Under the pieces are notes generated by a model. That model worked only from the letters and a program-made list of their open reading frames with translations, made no database searches and was not told the origin of the DNA. The translations under genes and the position numbers were made by a program. A stretch of DNA of 64,000 bases from Eledone cirrhosa (Eukaryota). Positions 45,001 through 45,720 of the stretch are shown piece after piece; the first letter of the stretch is position 1; each line of letters starts with the position of its first letter. The stretch lies in the NCBI GenBank assembly GCA_964016885.1, contig OZ024760.1, forward strand, positions 33,232,001-33,296,000, given 5' to 3'.

Positions 45001-45449
45001 ACCCCTTATCTCAGCTTTACTACCAGTGAACTGAGGTAACACCCCTTATCTCAGCTTTACTACCAGTGAACTGAGGTGACACTCATTATCTCAGCTTTAC
45101 TATCAGTTAACTGAGGTAACACCCCTTATCTCAGCTCTACTACCAGTTAACTGAGGTAACACCCCTTATCTCAGCTTTACTACCAGTGAACTGGGGTAAC
45201 ACCCCTTATCTCAGCTTTACTACCAGTTAACTGAGGTAACACTCCTTATCTCAGCTTTACTACCAGTTAACTGAGGTAACATCCCTTACCTCAGCTTTAC
45301 TCCCAGTTAACTGGGGTAACATCCCTTTCCTCAGCTTTACTCCCAGTTAACTGGGGTAACATCCCTTATCTCAGCTTTACTCCCAGTTAACTGGGGTAAC
45401 ATCCCTTATCTCAGCTTCACTACCAGTTAACTGGGGTAACACCTCTTAT
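1..45449. repeat. 40-bp tandem satellite, consensus CAGCTTTACTACCAGT(T/G)AACTGAGGTAACACCCCTTATCT, about 1,135 monomers, open at the left edge
   Basis: Uninterrupted 40-bp periodicity from base 1 to ...GGGGTAACACCTCTTAT at 45449. Only point variants and occasional 1-bp indels; no spacers; no ORF in the track. Confidence 0.99.
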
Positions 45450-45720
45450 TTTACGAGTACCTCTGGAGTATTCAAGCTGTTCCATGCTGTTTTCTGTAAG
45501 TGTTCCATCCATATTGCAATCCCTATTTGTCTGATGTACTTCTCAAGATCTCTTCTCCCTGTTCCCAACATCCCAACTATTACTGGTATTACCGCCACCT
45601 TTTACAGTGACCACAACTGCTTAACCTCCCAAGTTGTCATATCTATCAATTTTCTTCCTTGTTATCAGCTGGACAGGCTATATCTATGATCCGACATTGG
45701 TTGCTTTCTCAATTAATACA
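45446..45720 (-). mobile_element. Decayed 3' fragment of an RLE-type non-LTR retrotransposon (R4/Dong-like), copy 1
   Basis: Manual minus-strand translation across frameshifts: IVLIEK..CRIIDIACPADNK..KIDRYDNL/WEVKQLWSL*KVAVIPVIVGMLGT..LEKYIRQIGI..EHLQKTA../GTA*IL../VLVK*. This matches the C-terminus of restriction-like endonuclease LINEs (..IPVVVGALG..LQK..LLGTARILRKVL). Stop TAA at 45448-45446. Confidence 0.85.

What the first reader, a model, noticed from the sequence alone, without database searches (positions are those of the whole stretch)
45380..45720. Satellite birth at a retrotransposon 3' end: the 40-bp unit begins at the ORF stop codon
Seen: on the minus strand the decayed RLE ORF ends ...GTA CTC GTA AAA TAA GAGGTGTTACCCCAGTTAACTGGTAGTGAAGCTG AGATAAGGG..., with no gap. 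The stop TAA (45448-45446) occupies the position of the TAA in the monomer's AGATAAGGGGTG. The element's normal 3' UTR and tail are replaced by the array. Monomers in the last about 750 bp are more diverged and carry variants I saw only there (CTTCACTACC at 44735, 44855, 45415). Established: satellites can arise from TE fragments. Inference: about 40 bp of stop codon plus proximal 3' UTR of an R4/Dong-like element were amplified more than 1,100-fold in situ, with the founder still attached.
Basis: partly seen in the sequence, partly recalled or inferred. Interest (0 to 1): 0.8.

Follow-up and report, generated by a model that had tools for sequence, protein, structure and literature searches.

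The report
Satellite born from a retrotransposon's tail
A block of over 1,100 copies of a 40-letter repeat is built from the tail end of the jumping-gene family whose broken copy it directly touches; the unit was likely copied between that gene's stop codon and its final TAA and shortened by 34 letters, which leaves an unusually traceable record of how a new satellite DNA starts.

Summary
In public runs, five listed diverged copies of the same RLE-type LINE family run through the stop codon into the monomer. Three frameshifted read-through proteins also match the monomer's translation.

The interpretation needs refining. Ordinary copies leave the monomer at position 33 and continue with 34 bases the satellite lacks. 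In run X4 (a different organism) these bases lead on to the monomer's last 10 bases and a second stop-codon head. So the unit is probably the whole 74-nt 3' UTR, from stop TAA to tail TAA, minus a 34-nt deletion between two GAA triplets.

Summed depth on the head is about 35 times the ORF's in run X1 and about 0.3 times in X4. X4 holds rare 74-nt dimers but no 40-nt periodicity.

Not shown: a (TAA)n tail directly after position 74, and that this attached copy is the founder.

LINE-derived satellites are known. This scan noted a similar case (a 48-bp satellite from an RTE tail) on other DNA of this genome, but not this repeat. Verdict: new variant of a known kind, interest 0.5.

The parts
4..45448 (-). 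40-bp satellite array, 1,136 monomers in the window, continuing past the left edge; contains internal block duplications of 14-49 monomers
44610..45448 (-). Edge zone of 21 monomers: most diverged part of the array, with the private G31 variant in monomers starting at 45448, 44888 and 44768
45409..45448 (-). Terminal monomer, fused to the ORF
45416..45448 (-). Monomer head (positions 1-33), homologous to the stop codon and proximal 3' UTR of family B; holds the 5' arm of the outer stem and most of the inner hairpin (loop TGGTA)
   Evidence: bridging contigs table 8; read-through proteins; register compared by eye with alignment A3
45409..45418 (-). Monomer end (positions 31-40), equal to the last 10 bases of the native 74-nt unit; the GAA at 45418-45416 is the shared triplet of the 34-nt deletion
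   Evidence: table 5c (X4 contig, depth 15.5) and table 7 (X4 loose end at 45448, X1 loose end at 45416)
45446..45449 (-). Stop codon TAA plus the preceding A: 4-nt ATAA microhomology shared with the monomer-monomer junction
   Evidence: TRF boundary at 45449
45449..45723 (-). Element B: 5'-truncated, decayed C-terminal RLE endonuclease end of a non-LTR retrotransposon, with one in-frame stop and several deletions
   Evidence: tblastn with P0185, E 1e-18; groups with P0185/P0186/P0121/P0136/P0167 at 97/97 support
45724..45732 (-). (TAA)3 tail of element A, to which element B's truncated 5' end is directly fused
   Evidence: loose ends at 45722 in 36 X1 and 31 X4 contigs continue as TAA-like tails
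45733..46252 (-). Element A: 3' end of a second, distinct RLE family (about 35% aa identity to family B), with its own UTR and two-helix motif at 45811-45763

Best explanation
The 40-bp monomer is derived from the 3' UTR of the RLE-type LINE family whose decayed copy it abuts: it likely arose by duplication of the whole 74-nt UTR between the stop-codon TAA and the first TAA of the tail, plus a 34-nt deletion between two GAA triplets, and was then likely amplified in one host lineage starting at or near this locus. Shown: homology of the head to the native UTR, the 34 extra native bases, 74-nt head-to-tail junctions in run X4, and large amplification in X1 but not X4. Inferred: that a (TAA)n tail follows position 74 in ordinary copies. 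Inferred: that the first dimer came from TAA-related events, either a very short 5'-truncated copy inserted at the first TAA of an older copy's tail, or reverse transcriptase or repair synthesis re-pairing between the two ATAA sites. Inferred: later growth by unequal exchange or replication slippage, which left duplicated blocks of 14-49 monomers. The order of deletion and duplication is unknown. No function of the array is shown.
For: (1) Five of the 21 listed contig pieces bridge the stop into the head with 12-28 mismatches and 6-10 gaps at single-copy depth: X1 records 1-4 and X4 record 11 (351 further pieces not shown). (2) Ten X1 contigs leave the monomer at 45416 with a shared continuation, agreement 0.84. 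One X4 contig has 34 letters between 45419 and 45418, then the monomer end and a second head; it matches the X1 continuation at 25 of 30 positions (my count). Two more X4 contigs have the end of that spacer in front of a head. (3) Three of 64 proteins found with element B or in those proteins' clusters have C-terminal read-through matching monomer translations (P0127 and P0183: 0/2000 shuffles; P0151: 10/2000), against 0 of 120 element-A hits at score 28 or more. (4) Summed depth, head peak against ORF peak: X1 101,600 against 2,871; X4 760 against 2,401, with only 15.5 (one contig) over 45389-45412. (5) Related elements have short UTRs (67-140 nt where measured); 50 of 83 loci show (TAA)2 within 200 nt of the ORF end, and some end in GAGA then TAA (loci are partly redundant). 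(6) X1 records 2 and 3 and X4 record 11 carry 579, 100 and 351 downstream letters, yet no joint to a second head is listed for them, so ordinary copies appear to have one unit. (7) Element B itself is fused to element A's (TAA)3 tail, as expected for TAA-targeting Dong elements (PMC3812793, passage). (8) G31, the native base, survives in only 3 of 1,105 monomers, all among the first 18.
Against: The tail after position 74 was never seen directly, because loose ends are capped at 30 letters. The terminal monomer has G7, C15 and A21 where read-through proteins and an X5 contig point to native A7, T15 and C21; interior monomers with A7+C21 (40 copies) are closer to the native head, so the terminal monomer is not a pristine founder. 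The X4 dimer contig has A at position 31, so that state also occurs outside the satellite. A profile from 20 related UTRs places the monomer in the right register (1,079 of 1,134 monomers) but not above shuffles (350-730 of 3,000), and the covariance model gives no minus-strand hit in the array. No immediate UTR dimer was found in 67 related loci of other families. No listed contig spans this exact junction at high identity. Depths are summed contig depths, not copy numbers.
Confidence: 0.68

Rival explanations
1. The satellite was born from a family-B UTR elsewhere in the genome, and this junction formed later by recombination or gene conversion between the array and a dispersed copy through their shared 33-nt head.
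For: The terminal monomer already carries the deletion and the derived G7 and A21 states. X1 depth suggests about 10,000 monomers, far more than the window holds (rough). Family B has many dispersed copies.
Against: Native-type G31 also survives in monomers 15 and 18, and the edge is the most diverged part of the array, which fits an old edge. The junction is in exact register with no added bases.
Confidence: 0.17
2. Family B, or one subfamily, carries two or more 74-nt repeats in its UTR as a normal feature, as Ogre elements carry short arrays; the satellite is the expansion of a deleted version of that internal repeat and TAA microhomology played no special part.
For: Three X4 contigs, in at least two sequence versions, show a head preceded by the end of a 74-nt unit. 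Expansion of internal UTR arrays is the documented route in Lathyrus (PMC7004042, passages).
Against: Three bridging contigs with 100-579 downstream letters show no second head. In X4 the head's depth (480-760) is below the ORF's (up to 2,401), and only one contig covers 45389-45412. A 74-nt UTR fits the 67-140 nt range of relatives.
Confidence: 0.11
3. The junction is an assembly error that joined a dispersed element to the array through the shared head.
For: No listed contig or read spans this exact junction at near-100% identity.
Against: The 21 monomers at the edge carry private variants and a smooth rise in divergence, as a real array edge would.
Confidence: 0.03
4. Chance abutment of an unrelated satellite and a LINE whose UTR was lost.
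For: The clade-wide profile does not score the monomer above shuffles.
Against: Bridging contigs in two organisms and three read-through proteins.
Confidence: 0.01

Closest known systems
Satellites from LINE 3' ends: common cetacean satellite (L1 3' UTR), chicken HinfI/SCR1 (CR1 3' UTR plus part of ORF2), Drosophila 18HT (HeT-A/TART); PMC9659126, passages and part of Table 1 read
   Same: Monomer homologous to the 3' end of a non-LTR retrotransposon.
   Different: Here the source is an RLE-type element, the unit is only 40 bp, its boundary falls on the stop codon, a parent ORF is contiguous with the array, and an unamplified 74-nt dimer exists in another organism's run. The rows I saw list no RLE, Dong or R4 source.
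Tandem TE dimers by double insertion, R1 array in Drosophila (McGurk and Barbash 2018, PMC5932611; passages read)
   Same: Target preference plus 5' truncation yields tail-to-internal tandems that can seed arrays; the A-B pair and the X4 dimers have this form.
   Different: The R1 array repeats the element with a 33-nt rDNA target duplication. Here the unit is the UTR alone and the shared motif is the element's own stop or tail TAA; double insertion could not be told from slippage.
Ogre 3' UTR-derived satellites of pea and Lathyrus (PMC7004042, passages read)
   Same: Retrotransposon 3' UTR source; amplification restricted to one species while the element is shared.
   Different: LTR elements with pre-existing short arrays inside the UTR; ordinary family-B copies appear to carry one unit.
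Dong elements of the R4 clade (TAA targeting: PMC3812793, passage; a Dong element in Octopus bimaculoides: PMC9115989, passages; R4-Dong almost confined to cephalopods among molluscs: PMC10294476, passages)
   Same: RT followed by a zinc knuckle and C-terminal endonuclease motif in relatives; (TAA)n tails; fusion to a TAA run.
   Different: No reference Dong or R4 sequence was compared, so clade membership is untested.
3' tail stem-loops of stringent LINEs of the L2 clade (PMC4176376, abstract only)
   Same: A conserved stem-loop in a short 3' UTR, a candidate site for recognition by the element's protein.
   Different: Different clade and sequence; binding is untested for this motif, and the satellite has lost the 3' arm of the outer helix.

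Membership tests
TE-derived satellite DNA | Long homogeneous head-to-tail array | tested here: met
   1,136 monomers over 45.4 kb, mean 96.4% to consensus
TE-derived satellite DNA | Monomer homologous to a defined part of a dispersed element | tested here: met
   bridging contigs and loose ends; read-through proteins
TE-derived satellite DNA | Monomer amplified far beyond the element's own abundance | tested here: met
   head-to-ORF summed depth about 35 in X1 and about 0.3 in X4 (rough measure)
RLE-type non-LTR retrotransposon (element B) | C-terminal zinc knuckle and PD..D-type endonuclease after an RT domain (motifs recalled) | tested here: met
   Element B aligns to the C-terminus of P0185, which shows CRVC/HITSQC, RHD and KPDIV..IIDIACP. 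P0008, a relative of element A, carries RVT_1 and its only PDB matches are 5 sequences, named R2 or reverse transcriptase-like, best E 4e-34. The RT part of element B itself is absent from the window.
Dong/R4 clade | Placement in the R4 clade on an RT tree | not tested
   No named reference elements were available; the tree only separates families A and B
Dong/R4 clade | (TAA)n 3' tail | tested here: inconclusive
   Seen for element A and 50 of 83 related loci; for family B inferred only
Dong/R4 clade | Insertion into TAA repeats | tested here: inconclusive
   One case: element B is fused to element A's (TAA)3
Double-insertion tandem (McGurk and Barbash) | Target site retained at the tandem junction | tested here: inconclusive
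   The junction holds TAA, which is both putative target and stop codon; slippage gives the same result
Ogre-type internal UTR array | Ordinary dispersed copies carry short arrays of the unit | tested here: not met
   No 40-nt periodicity in X4; three long bridging contigs show no second head; 74-nt junctions seen in three X4 contigs only (listed rows only)
In-situ origin with founder attached | Single ORF-array junction and matching flank at the far end | not testable with these tools
   No genome held; the array leaves the window

The most novel reading that the evidence does not exclude
TAA-tailed RLE retrotransposons carry a built-in satellite generator: a TAA stop codon mimics their own tail and target, so whole-UTR dimers form repeatedly, and this array is one caught with its founder attached and its precursor dimer preserved in a sister lineage. 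Because the unit is the remnant of a strongly covarying two-helix RNA motif, satellite transcripts could still be bound or copied by the family's reverse transcriptase.
Probability: 0.25. Interest if true: 0.72.

Novelty: new variant of a known kind. Interest (0 to 1): 0.5.

Why it matters
How the first dimer of a satellite forms is usually lost to homogenisation. Here the parent family, both breakpoints (ATAA and GAA microhomologies), an unamplified 74-nt dimer in another organism's run and the amplified 40-nt product can all be named. The steps can therefore be ordered and dated with existing genome assemblies. A by-product is a two-helix 3' UTR motif shared across these RLE elements, with changes on both sides in all 13 pairs. 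It has no Rfam match at the gathering score in element A's UTR and is a testable candidate for the protein's recognition site.

Tried and rejected
Whole-genome search: no genome is held for this window, so the family consensus and the far end of the array could not be examined.

Direct monomer-versus-element-A UTR alignment: only about p 0.01 (22 and 19 of 2,000 shuffles), with 3-5 of 222 flank pieces scoring as high. The best flank score lay at an unrelated place near 46550-46600. Not used as evidence.

Clade-wide profile and covariance model: they find element A's UTR (top of 27,835 positions; E 3e-5) but not the monomer.

Word-index protein search with element B's open 51-aa piece: 0 of 28 candidates.

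Viral contigs: nothing with the monomer pattern or with protein queries. The two prokaryote bins behind L081 and L082 have no monomer pattern (0 of 2).

No RNA holder was listed, which says nothing on expression. RAD-seq run X20 barely covers element B and the monomer, and X8 laid only 5 contigs. X12 laid 2 low-depth contigs (depth 2-3) with a monomer-monomer junction, origin unclear. Table 3 lists no differences below 45453, even where X1 must differ, so it is uninformative on head variants.

No fixed higher-order repeat: best lag 48 at 0.13 against a median of 0.05. Consensus monomers fold no better than shuffles as DNA (z about -1). Read-through to a tail was sought in the P0185 cluster members listed (15 of 23) and not found.

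Full report
Observation. The junction is as described. On the minus strand the decayed ORF ends in TAA at 45448-45446 and the first monomer starts with that TAA. The array holds 1,136 monomers from 45448 to the window's left edge. The 10-mer CTTCACTACC occurs only at 44735, 44855 and 45415. The terminal 21 monomers are the most diverged of 1,116 sliding windows (93.5% against 96.4%) and the only one of 54 blocks with a recurrent private variant. The interior shows no fixed higher-order period but many duplicated blocks of 14-49 monomers.

Two elements, not one. Upstream lie two RLE-type 3' ends in tandem. Element A (about 46252-45724) has its own UTR and a (TAA)3 tail; 128 of 181 candidates matched its C-terminus, many with RT domains, one named from Octopus bimaculoides. 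Element B (45723-45449) is fused to that tail by its truncated 5' end. A search of 1.84 billion representatives with B gave 62 hits. A follow-up found a near-intact relative, P0185, which aligns to B at E 1e-18 and groups with it at 97/97 support, apart from A's family (B fills only 38% of the columns). The host is probably a cephalopod; this rests on that hit, on the R4-Dong distribution in PMC10294476 (passages) and on earlier scan notes, and is not proven.

No genome is held, so I laid public runs on the junction: 6 of the 22 listed runs, over two calls. In one search, 5 of the 21 listed pieces cross the stop into the monomer: X1 records 1-4 (to 45416, 45417, 45418 and 45424) and X4 record 11 (to 45416). 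They have 12-28 mismatches, 6-10 gaps and single-copy depth, so they are other copies; 351 pieces were not shown. Loose ends in X4 and X5 also show VLEK then stop followed by head-like bases. Independently, 3 of 64 proteins found with B or in those proteins' clusters end in frameshifted read-through that matches monomer translations (P0127, P0183, P0151), against 0 of 120 found with A. The refutation condition is not met.

What the unit really is. Ten X1 contigs leave the monomer at 45416 (position 33) with one shared continuation (agreement 0.84). One X4 contig (depth 15.5) has 34 letters between 45419 and 45418 and then continues through the monomer end into a second head; its insert matches the X1 continuation at 25 of 30 positions by my count. 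Two further X4 contigs show the end of this spacer, in a different sequence version, in front of a head. The native unit is therefore 74 nt, and the monomer is that unit with 34 nt removed between a GAA at positions 31-33 and a GAA at 65-67.

Where the native unit ends. Three bridging contigs carry 579, 100 and 351 downstream letters without a listed joint to a second head, so ordinary copies seem to have one unit; a second head under 80% identity would be missed. Among 83 related loci from metagenome and genome contigs (the best 80 of 303 confirmed, plus 3), 50 show (TAA)2 within 200 nt of the ORF end, stop-to-tail lengths are 67-140 nt where measured, and L042, L043 and L066 end in GAGA then TAA. 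Many of these loci are redundant. I infer that position 74 is the element's last base before the tail. This was not seen directly.

Amplification. Peak summed depth on the head against the ORF is 101,600 against 2,871 in X1 and 760 against 2,401 in X4. In X4 only the one dimer contig covers 45389-45412. So X4's organism has the element and rare 74-nt dimers but no assembled 40-nt periodicity, while X1's organism has roughly 10,000 monomers if single-copy depth is about 7. The tool warns that these depths are not copy numbers, and contigs show presence, not absence. Whether X1 is the window's own species is not established.

The UTR motif. Eighteen related UTRs, one per visibly distinct family and centred by me on a hairpin, align without gaps. 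A two-helix structure pairs in 88.9% of 234 cells, with changes on both sides in 13 of 13 pairs, against 32-45% for slid controls. The inner helix was used for centring and is biased; the outer helix was not and pairs at 84%. A model from this alignment finds element A's UTR at E 3e-5. By eye, family B's head plus the continuation pairs 13 of 13 in the same register if positions 21 and 31 are C and G. However, neither the profile nor the model scores the monomer above chance, and the deletion removes the outer 3' arm. A role in protein recognition is an analogy with L2-clade LINEs (PMC4176376, abstract only).

Founder or later junction. For origin here: exact register, no added bases, a diverged edge, and native G31 surviving only in monomers 1, 15 and 18. 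Against: read-through peptides and one X5 contig point to native A7, T15 and C21, while the terminal monomer has G7, C15 and A21; A7 (213 of 1,105) and C21 (341 of 1,105) persist in the interior. The edge monomer has therefore been exchanged or mutated, or this is not the founder. The far end of the array is outside the window.

Mechanism. The simplest chain is: a family-B copy sits at a TAA run; its UTR is duplicated between the ATAA at the stop and the ATAA at the tail; 34 nt are lost at a GAA microhomology, before or after; the 40-mer then expands by unequal exchange or slippage. The first dimer could come from a very short truncated insertion into the tail, since Dong elements target TAA repeats (PMC3812793, passage) and non-LTR tandems are mostly tail-to-internal (PMC5932611, passages). 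It could equally come from re-pairing during reverse transcription or repair. The A-B fusion and L071 (a second UTR copy about 400 nt downstream) show tandem placement. No immediate UTR dimer appeared in 67 other loci, so dimers are not common across the clade.

Known cases and novelty. Satellites from LINE 3' ends, R1 tandems and Ogre UTR arrays are established (PMC9659126, PMC12628747, PMC5932611, PMC7004042; passages only). Eight library searches listed no paper whose title or abstract start describes a Dong/R4-derived satellite, this repeat, or this UTR motif. The library lacks most subscription papers, Repbase and Dfam were not available, and no supplements were read; repeat libraries in those supplements may already contain the family. 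The scan noted a 48-bp satellite from an RTE tail elsewhere in this genome (e1-9585604, unchecked), but nothing on this repeat.

Verdict. Real, TE-derived, and better resolved than most published cases, but a known process with no function shown: new variant of a known kind, interest 0.5.

Noticed in passing
window 45763-45811 (-); alignment A3 of 18 loci among L001-L081: A two-helix 3' UTR motif (7-bp outer stem, 6-bp inner stem, 5-nt loop) covaries strongly across RLE elements from several hosts and is present in element A; no Rfam family matches it at the gathering score.
   Followed up: partly
window 45720-45732: Two different RLE families sit tail-to-internal: element B's truncated 5' end is fused to element A's (TAA)3 tail.
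   Followed up: partly
window 46810-47266 and 48041-48145: A 48-bp tandem repeat (9.5 copies) and a related 49-bp pair. An earlier scan note describes a 48-bp satellite from an RTE tail in this genome; identity with it was not checked.
   Followed up: no
window 47879-47936 (+): tRNA-like match (Rfam 31.2 bits), probably the head of a tRNA-derived SINE.
   Followed up: no
window 49623-52639: A 465-bp repeat of 98-99% identity in two blocks (4.1 and 2.3 copies) that meet near 51552 in opposite orientations, judged from matching ORFs on opposite strands.
   Followed up: no
window about 55600-59350 (-): A fairly intact APE-type LINE with endonuclease and RVT_1 domains, lying between two very long (TA)n tracts (53317-55507 and 59377-63998).
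   Followed up: no
window 45289-45448 (-): Monomers 2-4 carry C15 and G27 together, extending the internal palindrome to 14 bp; the first two monomers fold against each other as DNA with z -4.4.
   Followed up: partly
window 41493 against 32150, 25793 against 23873, 39656 against 36662: Exact duplications of 35-49 consecutive monomer variant patterns record recent large unequal-exchange or replication events inside the array.
   Followed up: partly
L081, L082: Two prokaryote genome bins contain animal-type RLE element ends with TAA tails, probably host DNA contamination.
   Followed up: no
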